DNA of 52,789 bases, taken from contig JBFFCW010000001.1 of the NCBI GenBank assembly GCA_041559695.1, positions 1 to 52,789 of the forward strand, written 5' to 3'. Positions 1,268 through 48,792 of the stretch are shown one piece after another. The notes below the pieces were generated by a model. The model saw only the letters and a list, made by a program, of their open reading frames with translations, was not told the origin of the DNA and ran no database searches. A program made the position numbers and the translations under genes. This stretch comes from Desulfobacterales bacterium. GTDB taxonomy: Bacteria; Desulfobacterota; Desulfobacteria; Desulfobacterales; JAHEIW01. Positions within the stretch are counted from its first letter, which is position 1; every line of letters begins with the position of its first letter.

Positions 1268-1633
1268 TTATTTCTTCGCTTGCTGGGTTTCATCTTTCTG
1301 CAGAAGAAGGGAACCCTGATGGCGTTTAAACTGAGTGGATGAATATTTGGCCAATTTCCAGTCGGGCACGCCGCAAACCCGGCAGACATCCGTGATCCAT
1401 TTATTGCGAAGCCAGCGGGCCGCTCTGCTGCTTCTGGAATTGTTGACCATGAATGTCTTGTTGCAGTGGGTGGTAATCTGAGCCTGGTCCCCCAGTTTTT
1501 CGATGGTTTTGATACCATGCAGAATTCCTTTTCGCGACGGCCACAGTTTAATTTTATCGATCAGGCGAAACAGCTCGACGCGTTTGCGATAGTATCGTTT
1601 GGCTGGTTTTTTTATTTTTTTCTCTGGCGCCAT
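1268..1633 (-). CDS. pylS: PylSn, the stand-alone N-terminal tRNA-Pyl-binding domain of a split bacterial pyrrolysyl-tRNA synthetase
   Basis: LWPSRKGILHGIK..MVNNSRSSRAARWLRNKW..CRVCGV matches the Methanosarcina PylRS N-terminus (LWMSRTGTIHKIK..VVNNSRSSRTARALRHHKY..CKRCRV). The start is taken at ATG 1633; the ORF track's upstream start at 1720 is a GTG and remains possible. Confidence 0.8.
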   Translation of the reverse strand: MAPEKKIKKPAKRYYRKRVELFRLIDKIKLWPSRKGILHGIKTIEKLGDQAQITTHCNKTFMVNNSRSSRAARWLRNKWITDVCRVCGVPDWKLAKYSSTQFKRHQGSLLLQKDETQQAKK

Positions 1634-2052
1634 GGCTGAATCAGCAGATCTTTCTGTAACGTGTTTGATATCATCTGTTCTCAGTCGGTCTGAATTCGAA
1701 GCGGTATATCGGTACAGCACTTACGTGCTTTTATCGCAATGGCTGTGGGCCGTCAATTTAATTCAGTAAATTTATAAAAATTACGTTTCGATCGGTTCGC
1801 TTCGCTCCTGGGGGGGACAGAAAAAAAATGGCCGGTCAATGCGAAGAAAGGCAGAAACAGAATAATATCCGGGCAAATTTCAGCAAAAATTTTTGAGTCC
1901 ATATAAAAGAGGTGGCATCTTACTGTGAGGCATGCTATGGATATGGTTTCTTGATTTTATCTATACAAGTAAGGTAACATACAGAAACTCAGGCTGTTCG
2001 CCCGTATTTAAGATTTTCAGAATTTCAATCATAATTCAAGCTGGCAATCAAC

Positions 2053-3954
2053 ATGAAATCGCCATCTAAAAAACCTGCCGTGCCCTCTGAACATCGGCCA
2101 GAGGAGCATACTCAGACCCGCAGCCGCCAGATAACGCAATCCGACAAGGTTCTCGGCCCGACTAACAGTAGATGGGATACGGCCCGCTGGCACGTTCCCA
2201 GGGCCCTGTGTACAGATCACAAAAAATTCGCCATCTCCGGGCAATTCGACCAATGCCTTACTTTCCCGGTATTTAATACCCATGCGGAGCCGGATTACCA
2301 TGGCTGGAGCAATTTTGTCCCTGATGAAGTCAAAAAATTTATCGAAAACACGTTCTGCAGCGCGCCGGTTCAAAAGCTAAAAGAAGACCTGGAACTTGCT
2401 GAGCGCAAATATCGACGTCTGTTTGAAGGCTCCAAGGACTTGATCTTTATTGCTCATAAGGATGGCGGATTCAGAGAGGTAAACCAGGCCTGTGTGGATC
2501 TGCTGCGATATGGCAGCAAGGAAGAGCTGTTTTCACTGGGTTCGGTGGGAAAGATTTACGATAAAACCACGCACTGGGAGGTATTTAAAAGACAAATCGA
2601 TCGTGACGGGTTTATAAAAGATTTTGAAGCCCTTTTCAGAAGAAAAGACGGAAGCCGCGTACACTGCCTGCTCAGCGGCAATGCGGTTCGAAGCAAGCAC
2701 GGAGAAATCATCGGCTATCAGGGCATTGCGAAAGACATCACGGCCCGCACGGATGCCACTCGAAATTTTTTCCAGCGACATCGGGAGCTTTGGGTTTTAA
2801 CCTCCGTGGCTTTTGCCATGAACCAGACCCAGGATTTGGACGCCATCCTGATGACCGCCTTGGAAAAGGCCCTGAAGGCGTTAAATCTCACCTGCGGCGG
2901 TATCTTTTTGATCGATTACGATAAACCCGCTTTTGTGCTAAAAGCGCAACAAGGATTTCCCGGGAATGCTACAAAAAAAACCAACCCGATACGGCTTCTT
3001 GACGAAACCCTCATGCGGTCACTGCTCCAAAAAGAGCTTATCCTCACTCCCGAGCCCATATTCCCCCCTTTCAAAGCGATTCTAAAAGGTGAAAATAATA
3101 ATCCGATACAGCTTATTTGTTTTTTGATAACTGCCAAAGAGAAGGCCTCCGGATTCCTTGCATTGGATGTCCCACCGGACAGGGACCTTGCGGCCGGTCA
3201 GGATTTTCACCTTTTGGGGTCATTGGGCAATTTTTTAGGCGGTGCCATTGAGAACAACCGCTTGGCTCAGACCATCGTCCGCCACCGGGAGGAACTCAAA
3301 GGGCTTACCGCCAGGCTGTTTCATTCTCAGGAGACAGAGCGGAGACGAATTGCACGGGAATTGCACGACGAAGTGGGCCAGGCTCTCACCGGGATCAATT
3401 TTACCCTTGAGACCGTTGAAAAAATCGCCGAGAAAGAGCCCGAGCGCCTCAGGCTTCATATTTTAGAAATAAAAAAACAAATCAACGGCACCTACCAGGA
3501 AATGCGCCGCCTGTCTCATTGGCTGCACCCGGCCCTTTTAAGTGATCTCGGGCTGGAGCCGGCGCTGGACGCCTATTTGAAAAATATTTCCGAACGCTGC
3601 GACCTTCGTATCGATTTTACAATGATGGGGTTCACAAAACGGTTGGATCTCGATATCGAAAGTGTTTTGTACCGGCTCGCCCAGGAGGCGCTCACCAACA
3701 CCCTGAAGTATGCCAGTGCAACCCGGTTTAAGCTTTCCATCATCAAGAGTTTTCCCAATATTATTTTCCTGGCTCAAGACGACGGAATCGGGTTTGACGC
3801 CGAAAAATTCATGGAAAACAAGCCGACCCTCGGGCTCTTGTCCATGCGTGAGCGGGCGGCTATGCTGGGCGGCAAATTCACACTGCATACATCAAAAGGG
3901 GCCGGTGTGCGCGTACGGATCGAAATCCCCCTGAAGGAGAGCGCTGATGAGTGA
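2053..3954 (+). CDS. Cytoplasmic sensor histidine kinase (PAS, GAF, HisKA_3, HATPase; NarX/LiaS-like)
   Basis: The H-box is ELHDEVGQALTG and the C-terminal region carries an ATPase G-box (DDGIGF, LGLLSMRERA). No transmembrane segment is apparent. Its stop overlaps the start of the response regulator by 8 nt. Confidence 0.8.
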   Translation: MKSPSKKPAVPSEHRPEEHTQTRSRQITQSDKVLGPTNSRWDTARWHVPRALCTDHKKFAISGQFDQCLTFPVFNTHAEPDYHGWSNFVPDEVKKFIENTFCSAPVQKLKEDLELAERKYRRLFEGSKDLIFIAHKDGGFREVNQACVDLLRYGSKEELFSLGSVGKIYDKTTHWEVFKRQIDRDGFIKDFEALFRRKDGSRVHCLLSGNAVRSKHGEIIGYQGIAKDITARTDATRNFFQRHRELWVLTSVAFAMNQTQDLDAILMTALEKALKALNLTCGGIFLIDYDKPAFVLKAQQGFPGNATKKTNPIRLLDETLMRSLLQKELILTPEPIFPPFKAILKGENNNPIQLICFLITAKEKASGFLALDVPPDRDLAAGQDFHLLGSLGNFLGGAIENNRLAQTIVRHREELKGLTARLFHSQETERRRIARELHDEVGQALTGINFTLETVEKIAEKEPERLRLHILEIKKQINGTYQEMRRLSHWLHPALLSDLGLEPALDAYLKNISERCDLRIDFTMMGFTKRLDLDIESVLYRLAQEALTNTLKYASATRFKLSIIKSFPNIIFLAQDDGIGFDAEKFMENKPTLGLLSMRERAAMLGGKFTLHTSKGAGVRVRIEIPLKESADE

Positions 3955-4642
3955 CAGGACCATCACCGTCTTTCTAGCGGACGATCACACGATTGTGCGG
4001 CAGGGGCTGGCAAAGATGCTGGAGGAAGAACCCCATTTCAAGGTCGTCGGGCAGGCGCACAATGGGCGGGAGGCCGTAAACATGGTAGAGGCGCTGAAAC
4101 CGAACATTGTCATTATGGACATTTCCATGCCCCTCTTAAATGGTATTGAAGCAACGCGGCTAATCAAGAAAAGCCGCCCTCAGACCAAAGTCATCATCCT
4201 CAGCATGCACAGCCATGATCGGTATATCGTGGAGCTTTTCAATCTTGGCATTTCGGGTTATCTGCTGAAAGACTCGACCGGTTCGGACATCATTCAGGCC
4301 ATTTCCGCAGCTGTCAGGGGAGATACCTACCTGAGCCCCTCCATCTCGCAACGGGTCATCGAAGATTACCTTTATTTAAAAAAAAGGTCTCCTCAGGAAG
4401 ACCTTTACGACAAACTTTCCAACCGGGAGCGCGAGGTGTTCCAGATGATTGCCGAAGGGCATTCAACCAAAAAGATTTCGGACATCCTCTGTATCAGCGC
4501 CAGTACGGTTAAAACCCACCGGGCAAATATCATGGAAAAGCTACAATTCGAAAATATTTCCCAGTTGATTCAATTTGCCATACATTTGGGAATTGTTGAC
4601 TTTCAATATTCCGCGCAAAGCCCGGATGAAACGGAAAGGTGA
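3947..4642 (+). CDS. NarL/LuxR-family response regulator (receiver plus HTH)
   Basis: The receiver reads VFLADDHTIVRQGL..MDISMP and the C-terminal LuxR HTH reads LSNREREVFQMIAEGHSTKKISDILCISASTVKTHRANIMEKL. Confidence 0.85.
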   Translation: MSDRTITVFLADDHTIVRQGLAKMLEEEPHFKVVGQAHNGREAVNMVEALKPNIVIMDISMPLLNGIEATRLIKKSRPQTKVIILSMHSHDRYIVELFNLGISGYLLKDSTGSDIIQAISAAVRGDTYLSPSISQRVIEDYLYLKKRSPQEDLYDKLSNREREVFQMIAEGHSTKKISDILCISASTVKTHRANIMEKLQFENISQLIQFAIHLGIVDFQYSAQSPDETER

Positions 4643-4731
4643 TGGTAGTTCAGATGTCTTTGCTCCGTGCAGGGCCGCTACTAAATCTCAAACTACGGGC
4701 GCCAAATTTCAAATTAGTGAACGATCGTCAT

Positions 4732-5859
4732 TCATGGGTGTGAAGCAAGACGGAAGGTTTGGGATGAGCATCGTGAACCAAGGGGTTTTCTGCGAGCCGC
4801 TGTTTCCTTGCGCTCCGCCATCCAGGATTCATATACGTTGCCACTGGCGACCCTCAGCCCCATAGCGGTGATCACTTTTTTAACTTCAGCCACGGTGCGC
4901 AGCCCCTGCTCGATGTCCAAAGCGCTTTGAGAAACTCCGGCCAGCCGGTTGTTGGGGGGAATAATGGATGTGATCACATTGGCTCCGGCATCCAGGCGCA
5001 TTTTGAGCCCTTTAATTCCGTCAACATCCAGCGAAGCGGGAATTAACCGGTCCGGCATGGCCAGACGCATCACCGCGATACACAAACATTCGATCATTCT
5101 CGAAGGGCTGGACATCCCGCAAAGCGGTGTCTCGGACTGGGGCACAAAACTCATCGTCCGGGCCTGGTCCACATCATTTTGCCGCATGGCCATAATGGAA
5201 TCCGCACGATCGTTGAGGGTTTCTCCGACGCCCAGCAAGATCCCGTCTTCCACCAGCATTCCGGCACGACGCGCGGCGTTTCTTTTATCGTTGCGGTATT
5301 TAAAGCGCTGGCCGGTTCTCAATTTTTTAAATAAAACGGAATTGTGAGTTTCCTGGTACAAAGCATACCAGTCCGTCTTAATTGCGGCGAACTGATGCAG
5401 GATTTCCTCGGGGACCACACCCGGTGAAATCATAACCGGTAAGCCTGTGTTTTTCTTTACCTGCGCAATCATTTCGATAAGAATATGGAAGTTGCCGCTA
5501 TCGTGTATCATTGGGTCTTCACCCAGGGTCAGGTCAACCAGATGCACGCCTGAATTTGCCAACTCGCAAGCGATTTCGATGACTTCTTCCAAACTCTTGC
5601 GGTAACGGGGGCTTTGTTTATTCGTTTTTCTATAAAAACAAAAAGTGCAATGATTTCGGCAATAAGTCGATAAATATATGAAACCATACAGGAATAATTG
5701 GTTCGCGAAATGCAGCCGGCACACCTTGCGAGCGGCTGACATAACCAGCTGAATCGATGCAGAATCTTTTAGAGACAATAATTGAAGGGTATCATCCGGT
5801 GATGGAGAAAATCCATGGATTGCCCTATCTAAAATATCGTTTAAACGACGCTGAGGCAT
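4732..5859 (-). CDS. pylB: Radical-SAM methylornithine synthase PylB (pyrrolysine biosynthesis)
   Basis: Colinear with Methanosarcina PylB: FIYLSTYCRNHCTFCFYR (CxxxCxxC), VDLTLGEDP, ALYQETHN, VEDGILLGVG and RLIPASLDVDGIKGLKMRLDAGANVITSIIPP. ATG at 5859. About 25 extra C-terminal residues. Confidence 0.8.
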   Translation of the reverse strand: MPQRRLNDILDRAIHGFSPSPDDTLQLLSLKDSASIQLVMSAARKVCRLHFANQLFLYGFIYLSTYCRNHCTFCFYRKTNKQSPRYRKSLEEVIEIACELANSGVHLVDLTLGEDPMIHDSGNFHILIEMIAQVKKNTGLPVMISPGVVPEEILHQFAAIKTDWYALYQETHNSVLFKKLRTGQRFKYRNDKRNAARRAGMLVEDGILLGVGETLNDRADSIMAMRQNDVDQARTMSFVPQSETPLCGMSSPSRMIECLCIAVMRLAMPDRLIPASLDVDGIKGLKMRLDAGANVITSIIPPNNRLAGVSQSALDIEQGLRTVAEVKKVITAMGLRVASGNVYESWMAERKETAARRKPLGSRCSSQTFRLASHP

Positions 5860-8466: not shown

Positions 8467-9867
8467 TTAAAACTTCATTTTTTCCTTCAAACGATTGACG
8501 CCGGCGATTTCGATATCGAGCAGCTCGGCAATTCTTACTTTTGCCTCAATTCCCTTGGCGCAACCCGGGACAGACGTAATGATCCCTAAGTCCAGCTCCT
8601 CGCGGACCTCTCTCATTACGTGTACATCCGACAGGTCGGCCGGGGAAACTTTTAGCTTTTTGGCAACGTAGGCTTTTGCGTCGTTGATCCGCATCTTGCG
8701 GGCCATCTGCATGCGGGCCACCAGATCTCCGGCGGTCCTGATTCCACCCATTCCTGCTGCCACTCCGTGAGCTATCGACATCCCCATGGGATCTCCCACG
8801 CCAATCTACAAACCGTCTACTTTGGCAATTTCCACCATGGCCTTCGACGCCCGGCTGACTGAATCGATAGGCGGTGTCTCGAATATCGGCGAGCCGCCAA
8901 CACCCATTCCCATGTTCACATGGATGGGGATGTTGGACGCTTCAACGCACGCTTTTACAAAGGTCACCGCTCTGGCCACATTCCACGGCATGTTTTTGCT
9001 GGGCTTGGTGTTTACCACCGGGCCAAAAATATCCGCCCCGGCTTGCTCCACGAGCTTGACTTGATCATGGCAGTACAAACCAGCGAGTTGCTGACCTTCA
9101 TATTCCAGACCGCCGTGCATACCGAGTACAAATTCTCCGGCCATTCCCACTTCAATGCACATATCGGTGTTTTTTTTCAGATGCTCGACGGCGTGCAGGG
9201 TGGCCTTAAAATCCGTATCGCCCGCAGCCCCGGTGGTATCGAAGTTTATCCCGTCACAACCGACCTCTGCGAGTCTTTCGCATACATAAACCATGTCCCG
9301 AATGGCGTGCTCCACCGCCCCTTCCTGGGCCTCATAGGACTCCTGGATCTTGCCCGCGGGCAGCAAATCCGAAGGATTTCCAAAAGGCCCGTCGGGACTG
9401 TAGTACAGACCCAGGTTTGGCATGGCGCCATAAAAGAGCGGCAGAATCGTTACCAGCAGCGCATTTTCCATTTCCTGCTGTTCCATAGCAATAACCGGCT
9501 TTACCGGCTTAAAGCTATAATCGATATGTCCCAGCTCCATGGTATCGGCACAAAATGCCCTTTCATGGACCTGGATGCCCTGCACCCGGCTCAGCGGTAT
9601 GCCGACACCGCTGTTGCCCTGGTCTCCCATCACCCGCAGGGTTCCGATATCGTGGGTGACGACCACTTCGTTCCCCGGCTCCACACTTACAAACCGAGTG
9701 GGGTTGGTAAAGATGTCCAGCAGGATGTCCAGATCATCTTTTGACAGCGGCGCTATCTTGCCCTTGTCGGCGGCGTCTGCAGTGCCCGCCTCCAAGTCGC
9801 TCATTATTTCCTCGGAAGTCATTTCAATGAGCGCTCCGTCCCCCCGTCTAGTAAGGTATTTCGCCAT
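8467..9867 (-). CDS. mtbB: Dimethylamine:corrinoid methyltransferase MtbB with in-frame UAG (Pyl) at 8806-8808, codon 354
   Basis: ORFs 8806-9885 and 8467-8799 are in the same frame and are separated only by TAG. The junction [16 protein letters not shown] equals the Methanosarcina MtbB VDG(I/L)-Pyl-IGVGDPLGM. The alignment holds over the full length ([24 protein letters not shown]). A strong RBS (GGAGGTGA) precedes ATG 9867. Confidence 0.9.
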
Positions 9868-9881
9868 ATTCTCACCTCCTT

Positions 9882-10526
9882 TCAACTGAATATTTCTTTG
9901 AGTTTCATCACCGTATCACCGGCGTTTTCCGCCCAAAAAGTCGCACCGATTTTGGCAGCCCAGTGTTCAGTGGTCGCCGCACCGCCGACCATAGTGGTCA
10001 GCTTGTCTCGAATTCCCGCGTCTTTCAGGGCTTGCTCAAGGGCTTTTTGCCCCACCTGGGTCGTTGTCATCAGCGCCGAGGAACCGACAACATCTGCGTC
10101 GGCCTCTTTTGCTTTTTCCACAAACGTCGCAATCGGTACATCTCGGCCCAGATCGATGACCTCAAAGCCGTAAACCCTAAGCATGGTGGCGACAATGCCT
10201 TTGCCGATGTCATGCACGTCCCCTTCGACCGTCCCGATCACAACCTTGGCCAGTTTCTTGCCGACCTGGTCTGCGGGCATGGCCTGTTCCAGTACCTTTA
10301 CCGCTGCCGTCATCGCCTCGGACGCGATGATCAGATGCGGTAAAAAGACCTCTCCGCGATCAAAGAGGTCCCCCAGTTTCCGGATGCCTTCAGAAAGACC
10401 TTTTTCGATCATCTCAACCGGATCGAGACCCTCATCTAAATATTCCTGGGCCAATTTCACTGCAGCTTGCTCATTTGCATCAATGATGTGCTGGGCAGCC
10501 TTTTCCATGAATTCCGCTTTGTCCAT
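9882..10526 (-). CDS. mtbC: B12-binding corrinoid protein (MtbC-like)
   Basis: DxHxxG motif (GDVHDIGK) plus SALMTTT and GGA motifs. It lies immediately upstream of mtbB. Confidence 0.85.
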
Positions 10527-13941: not shown

Positions 13942-15435
13942 TTATTTCTCCGCGGCTTTTGCGGCTTCTTCCGCTTCTAAAGCTTCCTGCTCTTCAACGA
14001 TGGAACGTAGTTTCGACGACACATCTTTGGGCAACGGAACCGGCTTATGGTTTTCCAAAATGTGGCGGGCTTCTTCTGCAGCCGCCTCGGCCATATCTTT
14101 GCCGCCACGTTTTTGCCAGGCCCCTCTCATCCGCCGGTCGATCAGCTTTACCTTGGACTGCTCCGGTCCCATATACTGCCGGGTATGCTTCTGAGCTAAA
14201 AAGTCCTTTCCGGCCCCGACCCTCTTGATGAGTTCAACCGCCAGGGTGTCATCGTTGATGGGTACACCTTGAACAACTCTTTTGCACATCCGGGCGATCT
14301 CATTATCAATCACAAGCTGGGCAAAGCTGAAAGTCACACCTAACTCCAACATACCCATCCCATAAATGAGATTTGCGCCCGCCAATGCCGGCAGCAGGGA
14401 GGTCATGGTTTTCTCATGCCCTGCTTGGACATCGGAAACCTTGCTGTCAGCCTACGCACCGGCGACATAGCTGGGTAAAAGGTACTTGCGTGCCAATGCC
14501 GTAACACCGGCACTGATCATGCCCAGTTCCGGTGCTCCCACCGGAGCGGTGGCATAGGTTAAATCAAAGGTTGTAGTCGAGCTGCCGTAAATCACCGGAG
14601 CGCCTTTGGCAGTCAACTGGGCCAGAACAATGCCGGACAACACTTCGGCATTGTGGGTCACCAGGGTCCCGCCAACGGTGACAGGGGAAGAAGCCCCTGA
14701 CATGGCCATGGAAAGAACGTTCACCGGAACCCCCGCCTTGGCGCACTCGATAATGATTTCAGCCGTATGAGTATGCAGCTCCAACGGGCTGGTGGGACAC
14801 ACCAGAGCGGAAACCAGGGGCCGCCTCCGCAGCTCGTCCATTCCGCCAATGATTTCGGCGGCCATTTCAAAAAACTTTTTGGCCCCGTCTCCGCCGGTCA
14901 GGTCAATGTGCTGACAGTGCTTGGACGTATTGCTCAAAAACGCCTCGGCTTCGTTTAAATCGGTGGCCCGTTCGACGTCTCTGGCCACCACTGCGCTGGA
15001 GTAAACATCCACATTATCCATGGCGTCACATGCCAGCGCGGTATGTCCGACATCCTGTTTGTTGGATTCCCGGAACTCACCGTTAAAGGGATCCACCACC
15101 ATGACGCCGGCGCCAAAGCTGGTGAATCCGACTCTGCCACCCTGCAGGGTGACATCATATTCCGGGGTTCGTCCGGCCAGCAGGATGGTGCTGGGAGCGG
15201 AACTAATGGCATCTTCCACCAGATGGGGAGGAATTCGAACATGGTTGTTCTCACGGTCCACGTAGGCGCCGCCATTTTCGAAAATATCCATGGCTTCGTC
15301 ACAATGAACCCCGACGCCGTAGTTTTGCAGGACGTCCAAGGTGGCGAGATGAATCTCGGTCAATTCATCATCGGTGAACATGCTCAACCCCCAGCCATCC
15401 ATGGTGCTGATGCCTGGTTGAAGTCCTCTGATCAT
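13942..15435 (-). CDS. mttB: Trimethylamine:corrinoid methyltransferase MttB with in-frame UAG (Pyl) at 14452-14454, codon 328
   Basis: ORFs 14452-15444 and 13942-14406 are in the same frame. Reading through gives [49 protein letters not shown], against M. barkeri [40 protein letters not shown] before ATG 15435. Confidence 0.9.
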
Positions 15436-15455
15436 AAGTATCACCTCCTTTGCTG

Positions 15456-16404: not shown

Positions 16405-16454
16405 ATTGCAATAGTCCATTGGATGATTTTTGTTGGCATGCGGGTCTATTTTGG
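16405..16454 (-). promoter_or_regulatory. Conserved ~50-bp operator/promoter box, copy A, upstream of mttC-mttB
   Basis: The minus strand reads CCAAAATAGACC-N12-AAAATCATCCAATGGACTATTGCAAT. The same 12+12+26 layout occurs in copies B-D and E. A TTGCAA hexamer is followed 17 bp later by TATGCC. Confidence 0.6.
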
Positions 16455-16605: not shown

Positions 16606-16655
16606 AAAAAATAGTCCCGCATCCTTTTGAAAATCATCCAATGGACGATTGCAAT
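16606..16655 (+). promoter_or_regulatory. Conserved operator/promoter box, copy B, upstream of mtmC-mtmB
   Basis: AAAAAATAGTCC-N12-AAAATCATCCAATGGACGATTGCAAT. TTGCAA, then 17 bp, then TAATTA (16672-16677). It is divergent from copy A. Confidence 0.6.
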
Positions 16656-16975
16656 TCTATTACACCTTGACTAATTAAACTTCTTATTATTAACTGGCCG
16701 AACTAGCGCCTTTTGCAGACAAGAGGCGGCAACGGCCAATCGGCAGCCTGCCGTTTCAGTTACTGAATTCGGGAAAGTTTAGATTCTACCTCGATTGAGC
16801 GTTTTTTGAAAAGAAGTGTACCGGATTTGTGTCCATCAGGATTTGCGAAAACCGCAGGCATACCTGTGGCCAGATCGATGATTTTCGTCCCGCCCAGGCG
16901 AGAATGCGCAAGAGACCGGTACGTCTCAAGCAAAAAATCGCTCAATTCAGGTCCTCATGAAAGGAGGTGAAATTA

Positions 16976-17614
16976 ATGTCTGAAAAGGAAATGTTCGAGC
17001 GTTTGAAAAAAAGCGTTATTGATATGGACGAGGAGGGCGCCAAGGCGGCGGCCAATGATGCGATCGCACAAAAGCTTGATCCCCTTGCCTGTATTGAAGG
17101 GGGTTTGTCCGCAGCCATGAAGGTGATCAGCGACAAGTTTGATAGCGCCGAGATTTATGTGCCGCAGATCATTCTTGCGGCCGAGGCCTTTACAGCCGCC
17201 GTAGACATTCTGGCATCCCACATCGAGGGAGGCTACGCCGGCAAGGGTAAAATTATCCTTCATACCGTTGAAGGGGACATTCATGACATCGGCAAAAACA
17301 TTGTCGGGATCCTGTTGCAGGCCAACGGCTTTGAGGTTATCGATTTAGGGCGGGACGTGGCTGTCGTTGATGTGGTTGACGCAGCCGTTGAGAAGGGTGT
17401 TGATGTGATTGCCGGTTCGGCTCTGATGACGACCACGATGCCTGCTCAACGGGAGATCATGGATGAGTTGAAAGACCGCGGCATCAAGGACCAATTCAAG
17501 TGCCTCTTTGGTGGCGCCCCCACGAGTCAGGAATGGGTGGACCAGATCGGCGCTGATGCATGGGCGGAAAACGCCGCGGAAGCAGTGACTGTTGTCAACG
17601 AATTAACGAGCTAA
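16976..17614 (+). CDS. mtmC: B12-binding corrinoid protein (MtmC-like)
   Basis: GDIHDIGK, SALMTTT and GGAPT motifs. AAGGAGGTGA at 16961-16970 precedes ATG 16976. The ORF track's start at 16967 lies inside the RBS. Confidence 0.85.
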   Translation: MSEKEMFERLKKSVIDMDEEGAKAAANDAIAQKLDPLACIEGGLSAAMKVISDKFDSAEIYVPQIILAAEAFTAAVDILASHIEGGYAGKGKIILHTVEGDIHDIGKNIVGILLQANGFEVIDLGRDVAVVDVVDAAVEKGVDVIAGSALMTTTMPAQREIMDELKDRGIKDQFKCLFGGAPTSQEWVDQIGADAWAENAAEAVTVVNELTS

Positions 17615-17641
17615 ACGTTTTAGCGGAAAGGAGGGATATAC

Positions 17642-19027
17642 ATGGCTTTCAAAGAGAAAGTGGGCGTGTTCGAAACTTATGATCGAGCACGCACCGGTCC
17701 CAGGGTCGATGAAAAGGAATGGGATCGAAAGATCACATTTCAAACGGCAAGCAAGTTAAAGGAAAAATACAAACTTAAATTCGACCGATCCAAGATCATC
17801 CCCACTGATACCGACATGATAGATCGATTATACCAGGCCGGTCTTGAAATGCTTGTGGAAATGGGTGTTTTTTGCATGGATACGGGTCGCGTCATCAAGT
17901 ACACTGAAGATGAAGTCCTGATGGCTGTTGCCGGAGCGCCTCATGAGCTTACGTTGGGTGAAGGTCGCGATGCGCGCCAGCTGGCAGGCAGAAGTTTCGA
18001 TGATCCCCGCCCACCCCTGAATCAAGGTGGTCCTACCGGGGCTCCTGTATCGGAAAACATTTTTATTCCCATGCATGAGGCCTACGCTAGAGAACCTTTG
18101 GTAGATGCCATCGTTAACGGGGTCTTGTCCACCATCAACGGCAGGGAGCCTAAGCCCGGTTCTCCATGGGAGATAGCCGCCGTCAAAGGAGAGGTCTCAA
18201 TGATCCGGATGGCGATGACGCGGGCCGGTCGTCCCGGCATGGCCATGTAGGGGAGCGAAACATCACTGACTGCCGCCGGTGTGGTGGCGGCTGATTTTCC
18301 TGGGGGCATGAGAGCCTGCGACAGCCACGAAGTGAGCCAATTAAACGAGCTTAAAATTGACATCAATGCGCTCACCTTCACGGCACATTACAGGTTAGCG
18401 GGCGACATCATCATGAGCGAGCAGATGCCAATCATTGGGGGCTGGGCCGGAGGGGTCGAGGAGACCTCTATCGTGAACGTCGCCACCCATTTGGCCGCTT
18501 TTATTATGGTCGGAGCGGACTGGCATTTGGACGGACCCATTCACGTACGCTGGGGCAACACCACGGCCAGGGAGCCGTTGATGGTTGCCGGCCATGCGTG
18601 TCGGGCTGTGGATCGCAATACGCACCTGTTGCTGGGAAATCAGTACTATACCTCCGCGGGACCTTGCACTGAAATGTGTCTGCTGGAAGCGGCGGCCCAG
18701 GCCATAACGGATACGGCCAGTGGCCGCGAGATCATGAGCGGATGCGCTTCGGCCAAAGGCGTGGCCCTGGATTATACCACCGCCATGGAAGCCCGGTTCA
18801 TGGCTTACGCAGCCAGAGCGGTGGCGGGAGTCGAAACTGAAAAGGTCAATGCGATGCTGGATAAGCTGGTGAGCATGTATGAGACCAAGTTCAAAGAGGC
18901 GCCCAAAGGCAAGACCTTTCAAGATTGCTACGATGTGAGCACCCTGACGCCTTCCGATGAGTATTTGAAGGTGTTTGATGGCGCGCTTAAAACCATGGAG
19001 AAAATCGGATTTAAATTTAAAATTTAG
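17642..19027 (+). CDS. mtmB: Monomethylamine:corrinoid methyltransferase MtmB with in-frame UAG (Pyl) at 18248-18250, codon 203
   Basis: ORFs 17642-18250 and 18281-19027 are in the same frame. AGRPGMAM-TAG-GSETSLTAAG..DSHEVSQLNELKID matches M. barkeri AGRPGMGV-Pyl-GPETSLSAQG..DSHEVSQLNELKID. The remainder is also colinear (GPCTEMCLLEAAAQAITDTASGREI). Confidence 0.9.
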
Positions 19028-19059
19028 AAAGATGGTGGTGCGCCGAGTTGAAGATTGAG

Positions 19060-19092
19060 TTTGTGCCGGAGATCTACATCCTCCGGCACAAA
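19060..19092 (+). terminator. Perfect 12-bp stem-loop after mtmB (terminator or processing hairpin; no clear U-tract)
   Basis: TTTGTGCCGGAG-atctacatc-CTCCGGCACAAA. Confidence 0.35.
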
Positions 19093-19143
19093 TAATCTCC
19101 TTGATCAATGAATTAAAAATCTGCTATCGACAAAGGACACAAA

Positions 19144-19458
19144 TTGGCCAAATGTAAAATCGAAGGTGGAATCTGCGGTTTTGTCACTACGGTTGAGGCA
19201 CATCCGGCGGGGAAGCGAAACATACGTCTGAAGATAACCAGCGATTGCCCCAATGTTAGTAAGCTGACAGAGGAATTTGTTGAGGTTGATCCGCTTGACG
19301 AGATAGCAAAAAGAGCCAATTCAACCAAAACATATGAGATGGCCAGCAAACATTGTCCCCATCCCGCCTGTATTGTTCCATCAGGGATAATAAAAGCAAT
19401 CGAGGTCGCAGCCGGTTTCGCATTACCGAAAAATGCCGTCATAAAAATAGAAAAGTAG
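19144..19458 (+). CDS. Small Cys-containing hypothetical protein (104 aa)
   Basis: Clean ORF with five Cys (CKIEGGIC, DCP, HCPHPAC). I do not recognise a family with confidence. Confidence 0.4.
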   Translation: MAKCKIEGGICGFVTTVEAHPAGKRNIRLKITSDCPNVSKLTEEFVEVDPLDEIAKRANSTKTYEMASKHCPHPACIVPSGIIKAIEVAAGFALPKNAVIKIEK

Positions 19459-19480: not shown

Positions 19481-19531
19481 CCAAAATAGACCTTGATTAT
19501 TATCAACATCCTCCAATGTAATGATTGCAAT
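19481..19531 (+). promoter_or_regulatory. Conserved operator box, copy E (degenerate, 1-nt insertion), upstream of ABC importer 1
   Basis: CCAAAATAGACC-N12-AACATCCTCCAATGTAATGATTGCAAT. The distal 12-mer is identical to that of copy A. Confidence 0.45.
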
Positions 19532-27544: not shown

Positions 27545-27594
27545 AAAAAATAGTCCCCCACGCTTAGAAAAATCGTCCAATGGACTATTGCATT
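27545..27594 (+). promoter_or_regulatory. Conserved operator/promoter box, copy C, upstream of ABC importer 2
   Basis: AAAAAATAGTCC-N12-AAAATCGTCCAATGGACTATTGCATT. TTGCAT, then 17 bp, then TATTTA (27611-27616). Confidence 0.6.
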
Positions 27595-35716: not shown

Positions 35717-35766
35717 TGAAAATAGTCCTGCGTGCTAATAAAAATCATCCATCGGACCATTGAAAT
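35717..35766 (+). promoter_or_regulatory. Conserved operator/promoter box, copy D, upstream of the mtrH-like operon
   Basis: TGAAAATAGTCC-N12-AAAATCATCCATCGGACCATTGAAAT. TTGAAA, then 17 bp, then TATACG (35783-35788). Confidence 0.55.
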
Positions 35767-46624: not shown

Positions 46625-48007
46625 TCAAGATATTTTTTGTTTAAACTTGTTGACACAGTTAATTTCCAAATTTAGCAATTTTGCGATGCGAAACTTGGCA
46701 TCAATTCCTTTTGCCACGCCAGGGCATTCATTCAGGGCCCCAAGATCCATATCTTCCCTGACTTCTCTCATGGCAACCGGATCTGCGATATCTTCCACCG
46801 AAACCCCGAGCCTGCCGGCCACATACTTCTTGGCGTCCTCAATCCGCATCGCCCGGTTCAGCTGCAAACGCGCCACCAGATCTCCGGCAGTGCGTAATCC
46901 GCCCATCCCCGAAACGATTGCATGTGCCGCATGCATCCCGTAAGGGTCGCCAACGCCCACCTACAATCCGTCCAATCTACAAATCTCAACATGCGCTTTG
47001 GAAGCTCTCGCCAGGGCGTCCACCGGCGGGGAAATCGCCATTGGAACGCCACCCACACCCATTCCCAGATTGGCATGTACCGGGATATCGGATGCCTCCG
47101 AACAGGCCTTTGTATAGGTGAGGGCCCGGGCCAGGTTGAAAGGCAGTGATTTGCTGGGGACGACATTGATGGCCGGTCCGAAGATCGTAGCCCCTGCTTT
47201 TTGTGCCAGTTTTATTTGGTCGTGGGGATAGAGCCCCGCCAATCGGACCCCATCGTATTCGACCTCACCATGCAACCCCATTATGAATTCCGAAGCCATT
47301 CCCATTTCAATGCCCATCTCGGGATATTTCTTTTTAAGGATCTCCACTGCTTGGAGCGCCGCGAGAAACTCCGCATCTCCCGCCGCAGCGGTGGTGTCAA
47401 AATTAATGCCATCTGCTCCGGTTTCATACATTTCACTGCCCACATAGACCATGTCTTTTACCGCATAATCTATCGCCTCTTCAAAAGAGGCCCTGCCTTC
47501 GGCGATCTTCCCCTGAGCGAACAGATCCAGTGGATTGGGGCAGGGACCGACGGGTTGGCTGTACAATCCCAAATTCGGCATCGCACCATAAAGAAGGGCC
47601 GGAATGGTAATTAATAACGCCTGTTCCATGATGGGTTTCTCGAATACCACGATGGGTTTTACCGGTTTATAGCTGTAGTCAATGTGAGCAAGCTCCAGGG
47701 TATCGGCGCCGAGTGCCCTTTCAAAAATCTGTAATGATTGGATTTTACTCAGCGAGACGTGTGCGCGCTTGATTTTAGTGGTACAGCTGTCGTAGGTAAG
47801 GCAAACCTCCTTTCCTTTTTCAACACCGACCACCCGATCCGTACATTTGTGGATTTCATACAAGTACTGAAGTTCATCTTTGGTAAGAACCGGGATCTTT
47901 GCTCTGTCTGCAGCATCGGTCGTCCCTTTTTCAAGATCTTCCCGGAGTTCGGCTCCGGTCATTTCGCACCTGATACCGTCACCCATTCTGGTTTGGATTT
48001 TTTCCAT
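46625..48007 (-). CDS. Divergent MtbB-family methyltransferase with in-frame UAG (Pyl) at 46961-46963, codon 349
   Basis: ORFs 46961-48028 and 46625-46960 abut in the same frame. LDGL-TAG-VGVGDPYGM retains the MtbB Pyl context. Other regions are conserved ([36 protein letters not shown]), but the [11 protein letters not shown] segment of canonical MtbB is missing. GGAGGAAG RBS before ATG 48007. Confidence 0.85.
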
Positions 48008-48024
48008 TGTCTTCCTCCATTTAC

Positions 48025-48792
48025 TCAATCGGTTTTAGAATTCAGATATGCCTTGACCGAATCCCAGGTCTTTAATAAGATTCTATGGGTGCCTTCACAG
48101 ACGTCCGTACGGAAACCAAACATCTCATTGAAAGCCTCGATATTTCGTCTCATTTCTGCAAGACACATAATCGGTGTTTGAATCAGCAGAGAGCGTTCAT
48201 AATGCTTGAATAGCCGTTTCGCCATTTCAGCGCTTAGGTTGCCGAACTCCTGCTCGAACATGCGCTTCCAATGGTATGTCCAGCCGGGTATCATAAAAAA
48301 GGTGCCCGCCACCCGGCACTGTTCTTCGTAATAGCGTTTGCGCCCACCGATAATCAGACCGATACAATCGTCAACCGGATGATCCTCATCCATGGGGATA
48401 AAAACAGGCACCCCGGCATCGGACAGCAGTCCCCCGGGATTTTCAAATGCGTTCCCGCACAAACCGTATCCAAGCATCAGAGCATCCACGCGAGGCCCAA
48501 ATGCCATTGCTGCCTCAATTAATCCCTGTTGAAGGGTGTGTTTGCGAATATGCAAGGCCAGCTCTAAAACACCGACCAAGACTTCCAGAGCAATTTGGGG
48601 ATCCGGGGTGAAATCATTCAGATGGGCGATCCGATTTAACTTGTCTTTATTGGTGGACTCAAAGGCAGCAATCAAGCGCGCGGATCGCTCATTCTCAAGA
48701 ACCGTAATGCGGCCGACTTCCTTATCCACCGCCAACAATTCGGCAAATTCCAGTTCCAGAATCTCACAGGTCAGCACGCCCAAAATTGCCAT
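48025..48792 (-). CDS. DUF1638-like protein (family assignment tentative)
   Basis: 255-aa ORF with an LGYGLCGN motif. It lies immediately upstream of the mtbB paralogue, with its stop 18 nt before that gene's start. Confidence 0.5.
   Translation of the reverse strand: MAILGVLTCEILELEFAELLAVDKEVGRITVLENERSARLIAAFESTNKDKLNRIAHLNDFTPDPQIALEVLVGVLELALHIRKHTLQQGLIEAAMAFGPRVDALMLGYGLCGNAFENPGGLLSDAGVPVFIPMDEDHPVDDCIGLIIGGRKRYYEEQCRVAGTFFMIPGWTYHWKRMFEQEFGNLSAEMAKRLFKHYERSLLIQTPIMCLAEMRRNIEAFNEMFGFRTDVCEGTHRILLKTWDSVKAYLNSKTD

What the first reader, a model, noticed from the sequence alone, without database searches (positions are those of the whole stretch)
17642..19027. mtmB is split by a single in-frame UAG at the pyrrolysine position
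Two same-frame ORFs (17642-18250 and 18281-19027) are separated by one TAG at 18248-18250. Read through, they give a 461-codon protein colinear with Methanosarcina MtmB. The residues flanking the TAG (AGRPGMAM / GSETSLTAAG..DSHEVSQLNELKID) match those flanking Pyl-202 in that enzyme. Standard gene callers would report two fragments or a pseudogene. The cognate corrinoid gene mtmC lies immediately upstream.
Basis: partly seen in the sequence, partly recalled or inferred. Interest (0 to 1): 0.6.

Follow-up and report, generated by a model that had tools for sequence, protein, structure and literature searches.

The report
Pyrrolysine-encoding mtmB gene in a bacterium
This is an intact bacterial gene for monomethylamine methyltransferase whose single in-frame UAG "stop" sits exactly where the 22nd amino acid pyrrolysine is inserted in the archaeal enzyme, and the same genome carries the full machinery to read it; it is a correct observation of an already well-known phenomenon.

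Summary
Two same-frame ORFs, 17642-18250 and 18281-19027, are separated by one TAG at 18248-18250.

- **Family match.** Read through, they give a 461-residue protein that matches Pfam MtmB end to end (703 bits). It is 55.6% identical to Methanosarcina barkeri MtmB1 (PDB 1NTH/1TV2).
- **Pyl position.** Codon 203 falls exactly on Pyl-202 of MtmB1.
- **Conservation.** All 77 homologous genes recovered from other genomes carry TAG at this column. They range from 94% identity (Desulfobacteraceae) to 54% (Methanosarcinaceae).
- **Selection.** dN/dS is about 0.04-0.10 both upstream and downstream of the TAG. A pseudogene, a split gene or an assembly error is therefore excluded.
- **Decoding machinery.** The assembly encodes tRNA-Pyl(CUA), pylSc, pylC and pylD on contig C4. 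pylB and pylSn lie in this window.
- **Neighbours.** mtmC lies immediately upstream.

- No PYLIS structure is supported.
- TAG is not depleted in the genome; it ends about 25% of long ORFs.
- mtmB itself ends in TAG, with a backup TGA seven codons later.

Verdict: a new member of a known kind (bacterial Pyl-MtmB). Interest is low.

The parts
16976..17614 (+). mtmC, the cognate corrinoid (B12-binding) protein. The likely start is ATG 16976, preceded by the SD AAAGGAGG at 16960-16967. The mechanical ORF starts at GTG 16967.
   Evidence: PF02607 and PF02310. TIGR02370 pyl_corrinoid, 231.6 bits, above the cut-off. It contains the GDIHDIGKN cobalamin-ligand motif. An mtmC homologue lies immediately upstream of mtmB on the same strand in 17 of the 22 relatives' loci that gave a hit.
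17629..17634 (+). Shine-Dalgarno AGGAGG, 7 nt before the mtmB ATG
   Evidence: read directly from the sequence
17642..19027 (+). mtmB, monomethylamine:corrinoid methyltransferase. It has 461 codons with one in-frame UAG (codon 203).
   Evidence: PF05369, 703 bits, full length. PDB 1TV2/1L2Q MtmB1, E~1e-174, 55.6% identity. It sits in a bacterial MtmB clade in the tree.
18248..18250 (+). UAG codon 203, the predicted pyrrolysine codon
   Evidence: It aligns with Pyl-202 of MtmB1. TAG is present in 77/77 homologues. dN/dS downstream is 0.04-0.10.
18248..18347 (+). 100 nt downstream of the UAG, the position of the archaeal PYLIS element. No supported RNA structure here.
   Evidence: RF01982 scores 46 bits, below the gathering score of 70, and the outer stem is mispaired. 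Fold z-score is +0.29. Only 7 predicted pairs and essentially no covariation in 16 bacterial homologues.
19025..19027 (+). the gene's terminator, also UAG
   Evidence: Among 74 homologues the terminator is TAA in 60, TGA in 12 and TAG in 2, the latter both Desulfobacula.
19049..19051 (+). backup in-frame UGA, 7 sense codons (KDGGAPS) after the terminal UAG
   Evidence: The tail is not conserved in frame in relatives.
19052..19098 (+). strong stem-loop directly after the backup stop. It is a probable transcript end or stabiliser and has no U-tract.
   Evidence: MFE -25.7 kcal/mol, z = -5.08, 0 of 200 shuffles fold as well.
16610..16651 (+). conserved ~45-nt box (AATAGTCC-N27-GGACnATTG) in the mtmC-mtmB upstream region. 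It is a candidate operator shared with other methylamine operons.
   Evidence: 4 strong copies, all in this window and none elsewhere in the assembly.
4732..5859 (-). pylB (methylornithine synthase), the first step of Pyl biosynthesis
   Evidence: TIGR03910, 440.7 bits against a cut-off of 348.2.
1319..1585 (-). pylSn (N-terminal tRNA-binding subunit of the split bacterial PylRS), within ORF 1268-1720
   Evidence: TIGR03912, 127.4 bits against a cut-off of 51.15.

Best explanation
Window 17642-19027 is one functional gene, mtmB. It encodes the monomethylamine:corrinoid methyltransferase of an uncultured bacterium whose best hits are Desulfobacteraceae/Desulfobacterales.

What is shown:
- The UAG at codon 203 occupies the pyrrolysine position of the archaeal enzyme.
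- The UAG is conserved as TAG throughout the family.
- The genome encodes a tRNA-Pyl with anticodon CUA, the split bacterial Pyl-tRNA synthetase (pylSc and pylSn), and the biosynthetic genes pylB, pylC and pylD.

What is inferred:
- When these genes are expressed, Pyl-tRNA(CUA) outcompetes release factor 1 at UAG-203. The ribosome then makes the full 461-residue TIM-barrel enzyme with Pyl in the active site.
- As established for M. barkeri MtmB, the Pyl imine binds and activates monomethylamine, and the methyl group passes to Co(I) of MtmC, encoded just upstream.
- Methyl-MtmC is then demethylated by one of the MT2-type enzymes in the island (URO-D family or MtrH-like), and RamA/RACo-type activases keep the corrinoid reduced.
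- No dedicated insertion element is needed. UAG stays an ordinary stop in the genome (about 25% of long ORFs), so discrimination probably relies on conditional expression of the Pyl machinery and on tolerated read-through. mtmB's own UAG terminator is backed up by a UGA 7 codons later.
For: - **Family and position.** Full-length PF05369 match, 703 bits. 55.6% identity to the solved MtmB1 structure, with codon 203 on Pyl-202.
- **Conservation.** TAG at this column in 77/77 homologues from independent assemblies of Thermodesulfobacteriota, Chloroflexota, Actinomycetota, Methanomassiliicoccales and Methanosarcinaceae.
- **Selection.** dN/dS is 0.04-0.10 downstream of the TAG, the same as upstream, with dS of 0.7 to more than 2.
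- **Decoding machinery.** tRNA-Pyl(CUA) with a 6-bp anticodon stem at C4:22883-22956. pylSc, pylC and pylD lie next to it. pylB and pylSn are in the window.
- **Gene context.** mtmC is immediately upstream, and that synteny is conserved. Three more UAG-containing methylamine methyltransferase genes (mttB, 2x mtbB) are in the same window. MT2 and RACo/RamA genes are also in the window.
- **UAG usage.** TAG ends 24.6% of 1810 long ORFs.
- **Literature.** Pyl systems in Desulfobacteraceae are described in PMC8318568 and PMC1976440.
Against: - No direct evidence of translation: no proteome or transcript data, and raw reads could not be consulted.
- The assembly is a 72%-complete, 487-contig MAG. 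Co-residence of the C4 pyl genes with this contig therefore rests on binning (contamination estimate 3.7%).
- The fate of the methyl group is not established. dsrA/dsrB and CdhC/AcsB were not found in the assembly.
- Substrate specificity is inferred from homology only.
Confidence: 0.94

Rival explanations
1. The TAG is a nonsense mutation, and mtmB is a pseudogene in decay.
For: By table 11 the frame is interrupted. TAG is a common ordinary stop in this genome.
Against: The same codon at the same column appears in 77/77 homologues across five phyla. dN/dS downstream of the stop is 0.04-0.10 despite saturated synonymous change. There are no further stops or frameshifts. The complete Pyl machinery is present.
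Confidence: 0.01
2. The TAG is a sequencing or assembly error in this MAG.
For: The assembly is fragmented.
Against: Independent assemblies at 94%, 93% and 87% identity, and all more distant ones, have TAG at exactly this codon. An error would have to recreate the family's conserved codon by chance.
Confidence: 0.01
3. The gene is genuinely split. A 202-aa N-terminal and a 248-aa C-terminal polypeptide (from GTG 18281) are made separately and assemble, without Pyl.
For: A GTG start exists 10 codons after the TAG. Public databases hold many C-terminal fragments called this way.
Against: There is no Shine-Dalgarno before GTG 18281. The 10 codons between TAG and GTG (GSETSLTAAG) are conserved as protein in all relatives. 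The active-site residue would be missing. The fragments in databases are gene-caller artefacts of the same UAG.
Confidence: 0.02
4. UAG-203 is read through, but by a near-cognate or other suppressor tRNA that inserts a canonical residue. This would yield a Pyl-less enzyme, by analogy with non-Pyl homologues.
For: One homologue at 61% identity (L087) has Cys (TGT) at this column. Distant MtmB-family members, including one on contig C283 of this genome, have sense codons there. A non-Pyl MtmB homologue (MtqB) is functional on other substrates (PMC13044021).
Against: The only CUA-anticodon tRNA found is tRNA-Pyl. The genome keeps all six pyl genes intact. If a canonical residue sufficed, TAG would not be held in 77/77 orthologues.
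Confidence: 0.02

Closest known systems
MtmB1 of Methanosarcina barkeri (monomethylamine:corrinoid methyltransferase; PDB 1NTH, 1L2Q, 1TV2-4), the protein in which pyrrolysine was discovered
   Same: Same Pfam family over the full length. 55.6% identity with a single one-residue gap. UAG at the column of Pyl-202. The mtmC-mtmB gene order is the same.
   Different: The host is bacterial and belongs to a distinct, well-supported bacterial clade. No PYLIS structure is supported downstream of the UAG. The terminator is UAG rather than UAA. The methyl acceptor is presumably not coenzyme M.
Bacterial Pyl-MtmB genes of uncultured Desulfobacteraceae/Desulfobacterales, Desulfobacula spp. and Dehalococcoidales in public genomes (e.g. 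loci L007, L015, L008, L009, L012)
   Same: 78-94% identity (L014 and more distant Dehalococcoidales loci are 65-72% identical). TAG at the same codon. mtmC upstream. In L007 and L015 the same LIV-type binding-protein gene lies downstream.
   Different: Most end in TAA. Only the window and two Desulfobacula genes end in TAG. I found no paper that discusses these genes specifically.
Pyl systems described in marine Deltaproteobacteria (Kivenson et al. 2021, PMC8318568; Olavius delta-1 symbiont, Zhang and Gladyshev 2007, PMC1976440)
   Same: Split pylSn/pylSc, pylBCD and pylT. UAG-containing mttB and mtbB. Co-occurring Sec machinery (a tRNA-Sec is also present here). No common PYLIS. UAG is still used as a stop.
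   Different: Those papers report TMA and DMA methyltransferases. The delta-1 symbiont had 0 MtmB. Here the MMA enzyme is present as well, which completes the tri-, di- and mono-methylamine set.
Non-Pyl MtmB homologues (MtqB of Methanococcoides methylutens Q3c, PMC13044021)
   Same: Same Pfam family and the same pairing with a corrinoid protein.
   Different: They have a sense codon at the Pyl column and a different substrate (tetramethylammonium/choline). The window's gene has TAG and groups with true MtmB. The genome's separate copy on C283 is of the non-Pyl kind.

Membership tests
MtmB, Pyl-containing monomethylamine:corrinoid methyltransferase (PF05369) | Full-length match to the family profile above the curated cut-off | tested here: met
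   703.2 bits against a cut-off of 25; profile positions 2-449 of 450
MtmB, Pyl-containing monomethylamine:corrinoid methyltransferase (PF05369) | Single in-frame UAG aligned with Pyl-202 of M. barkeri MtmB1 | tested here: met
   Query residue 203 aligns with chain residue 202. TAG in 77/77 homologues.
MtmB, Pyl-containing monomethylamine:corrinoid methyltransferase (PF05369) | Adjacent cognate corrinoid protein gene (mtmC) | tested here: met
   TIGR02370, 231.6 bits, above the cut-off of 215.3. It ends 27 nt upstream of mtmB. The synteny is conserved.
MtmB, Pyl-containing monomethylamine:corrinoid methyltransferase (PF05369) | Genome encodes tRNA-Pyl(CUA), PylRS and PylBCD | tested here: met
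   pylT. pylSc 328.7 bits, pylC 423.1 bits, pylD 263 bits, pylB 440.7 bits. pylSn 127.4 bits. All are above their cut-offs.
MtmB, Pyl-containing monomethylamine:corrinoid methyltransferase (PF05369) | Sequence downstream of the UAG is translated (purifying selection) | tested here: met
   dN/dS is 0.036-0.101 downstream and 0.029-0.12 upstream, against 7 relatives (upstream could be calculated for five of them).
MtmB, Pyl-containing monomethylamine:corrinoid methyltransferase (PF05369) | Pyrrolysine chemically present at the UAG position; monomethylamine-dependent methylation of Co(I)-corrinoid | not testable with these tools
   Needs mass spectrometry and an enzyme assay.
PYLIS_1 (Rfam RF01982), pyrrolysine insertion sequence of mtmB | Score at or above the gathering threshold | tested here: not met
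   46 bits against 70. The outer stem is marked non-canonical, and the similarity is that of the coding sequence.
PYLIS_1 (Rfam RF01982), pyrrolysine insertion sequence of mtmB | Thermodynamically or evolutionarily supported stem-loop within 100 nt after the UAG | tested here: not met
   z = +0.29 against shuffles. The consensus fold of 16 bacterial homologues is -1.9 kcal/mol with a covariation term of 0.06.
Non-Pyl MtmB homologues (MtqB-like) | Sense codon at the Pyl column | tested here: not met
   The window's gene has TAG. The genome's other family member on C283 does have a sense codon.

The most novel reading that the evidence does not exclude
In this bacterium UAG is a fully used stop codon (about 25% of genes) and mtmB has no insertion element. 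Pyrrolysine decoding would therefore be gated purely by supply.

pylB, the first biosynthetic step, sits at the end of the co-directional mttC-mttB-...-mtbB-...-pylB gene string (16100 down to 4732). That string lies behind the same ~45-nt operator-like box that precedes mtmC-mtmB. Pyl would then be made only when methylamine genes are induced.

mtmB's own UAG terminator would then yield a second isoform, extended by Pyl plus 7 residues and ended by the backup UGA. That isoform would be a built-in read-out of suppression level.
Probability: 0.3. Interest if true: 0.4.

Novelty: new member of a known kind. Interest (0 to 1): 0.15.

Why it matters
It matters mainly for annotation. Ordinary gene callers report this gene as two fragments or a pseudogene, so the organism's ability to use monomethylamine would be missed. 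The window also holds mttB and two mtbB genes, all with UAG. Together with mtmB they show that a non-methanogenic bacterium carries the complete tri-, di- and mono-methylamine demethylation set. This bears on competition with methylotrophic methanogens for methylamines in anoxic sediments. It adds no new principle. UAG as pyrrolysine in mtmB has been established since 2002, and bacterial Pyl systems, including those in Desulfobacteraceae, are described.

Tried and rejected
- **Raw reads.** Conservation of the codon across independent assemblies was used instead.
- **PYLIS element.** Rfam at gathering threshold gave no hit at mtmB, although the mttB and mtbB PYLIS models hit their genes. At a permissive threshold PYLIS_1 scored 46 bits against 70, with a mispaired outer stem. 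The single-sequence fold is no better than shuffles, and the alignment fold shows no covariation. Rejected as a structural element here.
- **Shared box and the pylT locus.** I looked for the methylamine-promoter box upstream of pylT-pylSc on C4 and anywhere else in the assembly. No copy was found outside the window. A shared operator for pylT/pylS is therefore not supported.
- **Downstream physiology.** dsrA, dsrB and CdhC/AcsB were not found above cut-off in the 72%-complete assembly. The idea that the methyl group is oxidised via reverse Wood-Ljungdahl and coupled to sulfate reduction remains an analogy to the literature. It was not shown here.
- **NCBIfam.** There is no model for MtmB (0 families), so only Pfam and PDB served for membership.
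- **Full-length database homologues without a stop.** One (P0002/L086) was simply called with TAG=Q. One (P0003/L087) truly has TGT.
- **C-terminal extension after the terminal TAG.** Its frame is not conserved in the two Desulfobacula genes that also end in TAG, so it is not a selected coding extension.

Full report
**Observation**

On the + strand, ORF 17642-18250 (202 aa, ATG start) and ORF 18281-19027 (248 aa, GTG start) are in the same frame. The only stop between them is TAG at 18248-18250. A strong Shine-Dalgarno (AGGAGG, 17629-17634) lies 7 nt before the ATG. No such site precedes GTG 18281. Translation with TAG read through gives 461 residues.

**Identity**

- The read-through product matches Pfam PF05369 (MtmB) over profile positions 2-449 of 450, at 703 bits and E=1.8e-211.
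- Against solved structures it matches M. barkeri MtmB1 (1TV2/1L2Q/1NTH) over its entire length, at E~1e-174.
- Counting the printed alignment gives 255 identities in 459 columns (55.6%). Query residue 203 lies on chain residue 202, which is Pyl-202 (Pyl202 is named as such in PMC9842639).
- NCBIfam has no MtmB model.
- The gene upstream (mechanical ORF 16967-17614; probable start ATG 16976, behind AAAGGAGG) is a two-domain B12-binding protein. It scores above the cut-off of TIGR02370, the methylamine-methyltransferase cognate corrinoid family.

**Is the TAG real and is it read?**

Comparative evidence is nevertheless decisive.

- A scan of one genome per prokaryotic species returned 79 loci. 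These include uncultured Desulfobacteraceae/Desulfobacterales (94% and 93% identity), Desulfobacula spp. (84-87%), Dehalococcoidales (65-80%), a Coriobacteriia MAG, Methanomassiliicoccales and many Methanosarcinaceae (54-59%).
- In every one of the 77 gene copies where the motif could be located, the codon at this column is TAG.
- Nei-Gojobori estimates were made against seven relatives. dN/dS is 0.036-0.101 for the 255 codons downstream of the TAG. It is 0.029-0.12 for the 200 codons upstream, where it could be calculated for five of the seven. Synonymous divergence is 0.7 to more than 2.
- The part after the TAG is therefore translated and constrained exactly like the part before it.
- This excludes a pseudogene and an assembly error. 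It also argues against two separately made polypeptides, because the ten codons between the TAG and the GTG are conserved as protein.

**Decoding machinery**

The window is contig C1 of a 3.9-Mb, 487-contig assembly that is about 72% complete with 3.7% contamination.

- ARAGORN finds exactly one CUA-anticodon tRNA, tRNA-Pyl at C4:22883-22956. It has the 6-bp anticodon stem typical of tRNA-Pyl.
- A tRNA-Sec is present on C380.
- Directly downstream of pylT on C4 lie pylSc (TIGR02367, 328.7 bits), pylC (423.1 bits) and pylD (263 bits).
- pylB is in the window itself at 4732-5859(-) (440.7 bits). pylSn is at 1319-1585(-) (127.4 bits).
- All six components are above their curated cut-offs.
- The split pylSn/pylSc arrangement is the bacterial form (PMC1976440).

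**Context**

The window is a methylamine island.

- It holds mttB (13942-15444, -) and two mtbB genes (8467-9885 and 46625-48028, -). Each has one in-frame TAG, scores above its TIGR equivalog cut-off, and carries an Rfam PYLIS_2/3 hit.
- It holds several corrinoid proteins, three URO-D-family MT2 methyltransferases and an MtrH-like methyltransferase.
- It holds three RACo/RamA-type reductive activases, CobW, a corrinoid adenosyltransferase and two LIV-type ABC importers.
- mtmC-mtmB synteny is conserved in bacteria and archaea alike.
- In a maximum-likelihood tree the window's protein sits in a Thermodesulfobacteriota group, inside a starred bacterial clade with Dehalococcoidales and a Coriobacteriia sequence. 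This clade is well separated from the Methanosarcinaceae.

**How the UAG is distinguished**

- *No PYLIS structure.* The 100 nt after the UAG match Rfam PYLIS_1 only at 46 bits (gathering score 70), and the outer stem is non-canonical. They fold no better than shuffled sequence (z=+0.29). Sixteen bacterial homologues give a consensus fold of -1.9 kcal/mol with no covariation. The resemblance is therefore that of a conserved coding sequence, not of an RNA structure. This agrees with earlier reports that bacterial Pyl genes share no common structure (PMC1976440; PMC3639795).
- *TAG is not avoided.* Of 1810 non-overlapping ORFs of at least 250 aa, 24.6% end in TAG.
- *mtmB itself ends in TAG.* The terminator is at 19025-19027, and a TGA follows seven codons later at 19049-19051. 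Among homologues the terminator is TAA in 60, TGA in 12 and TAG in only two Desulfobacula genes. One of those has TAG-TAA in tandem and the other has a TGA after 8 codons. The tail is not conserved in frame. It therefore looks like a tolerated read-through with a nearby backup stop, not a selected extension.
- *A hairpin follows the backup stop.* A strong stem-loop at 19052-19098 (z=-5.1) comes directly after it and probably marks the transcript end.

The most economical mechanism is the one described for other bacteria (conditional supply of Pyl-tRNA, cited in PMC8318568 as Prat et al. 2012). Here this is inference only. One local observation is consistent with it: a ~45-nt box (AATAGTCC-N27-GGACnATTG). 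It precedes mtmC-mtmB (16610-16651), the divergent string on the minus strand that ends with pylB (16409-16450), the second importer and the mtrH-like operon. It occurs nowhere else in the assembly, and not upstream of pylT.

**Limits**

- Nothing here shows translation or chemistry directly.
- The link between contigs C1 and C4 rests on binning.
- The sink for the methyl group is unknown. dsrA/dsrB and CdhC/AcsB were not found in this incomplete assembly. The model of sulfate-reducing, reverse Wood-Ljungdahl metabolism from PMC8318568 cannot be asserted for this genome.

**Comparison and novelty**

UAG-encoded pyrrolysine in mtmB is the founding example of the 22nd amino acid. Bacterial Pyl systems are well documented, including in Desulfobacteraceae. 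Near-identical mtmB genes with the same TAG already sit in public MAGs.

The two Deltaproteobacteria papers I read emphasise mttB and mtbB. The Olavius symbiont had no MtmB. A full mono-, di- and tri-methylamine set in this lineage is thus a modest addition, and it is not new in kind. An earlier follow-up on the neighbouring mtbB of this window reached the same view.

Verdict: observation confirmed, interpretation supported, new member of a known kind, low interest.

Noticed in passing
L087:554-1951 (Logan contig from SRR15661548): This MtmB homologue is 61% identical to the window's protein. It has TGT (Cys) at the pyrrolysine column and no internal stop, and is followed by a corrinoid protein and a URO-D MT2 gene. 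It is a close relative of true Pyl-MtmB that has replaced Pyl by Cys.
   Followed up: partly
own genome contig C283 = L005:1495-2736 (3' end cut by the contig end), with a corrinoid gene at L005:797-1438: This is a second MtmB-family gene (PF05369, 246 bits, about 33% identity) with a sense codon at the Pyl column and its own corrinoid protein. It belongs to the non-Pyl MtmB class, whose first characterised member is MtqB (tetramethylammonium/choline; PMC13044021). Many such full-length non-Pyl homologues exist in Marinimicrobia, Anaerolineae, Desulfobacterales and Acidimicrobiia.
   Followed up: partly
window 16409-16450 (-), 16610-16651 (+), 27549-27590 (+), 35721-35762 (+); weaker copy near 19481-19518: A ~45-nt box, AATAGTCC-N27-GGACnATTG, with inverted-repeat ends lies in the upstream regions of mttC, mtmC, the second ABC importer and the mtrH-like operon. 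No copy exists elsewhere in the 3.9-Mb assembly, and none upstream of pylT.
   Followed up: partly
window 19025-19051: mtmB terminates with TAG, followed by 7 sense codons and a TGA. Only two Desulfobacula homologues also end in TAG; the other 72 use TAA or TGA.
   Followed up: yes
whole assembly (G000): TAG ends 24.6% of 1810 long ORFs, so the amber codon is not depleted despite a complete Pyl system. A tRNA-Sec is also present on C380, indicating dual code expansion.
   Followed up: partly
own genome contig C4 (L003:5884-9045) versus window 1268-5859: The pyl genes are split between two contigs. pylT-pylSc-pylC-pylD are together on C4 without pylB. pylB and pylSn are in the methylamine island, separated by a two-component system.
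   Followed up: yes
window 19144-19458 (+): A 104-aa DUF6951 protein is encoded directly downstream of mtmB, before the LIV-type importer. Its function is unknown.
   Followed up: no
window 16967-16976: The mechanical GTG start of mtmC overlaps its own Shine-Dalgarno. ATG 16976 is the more plausible start.
   Followed up: yes
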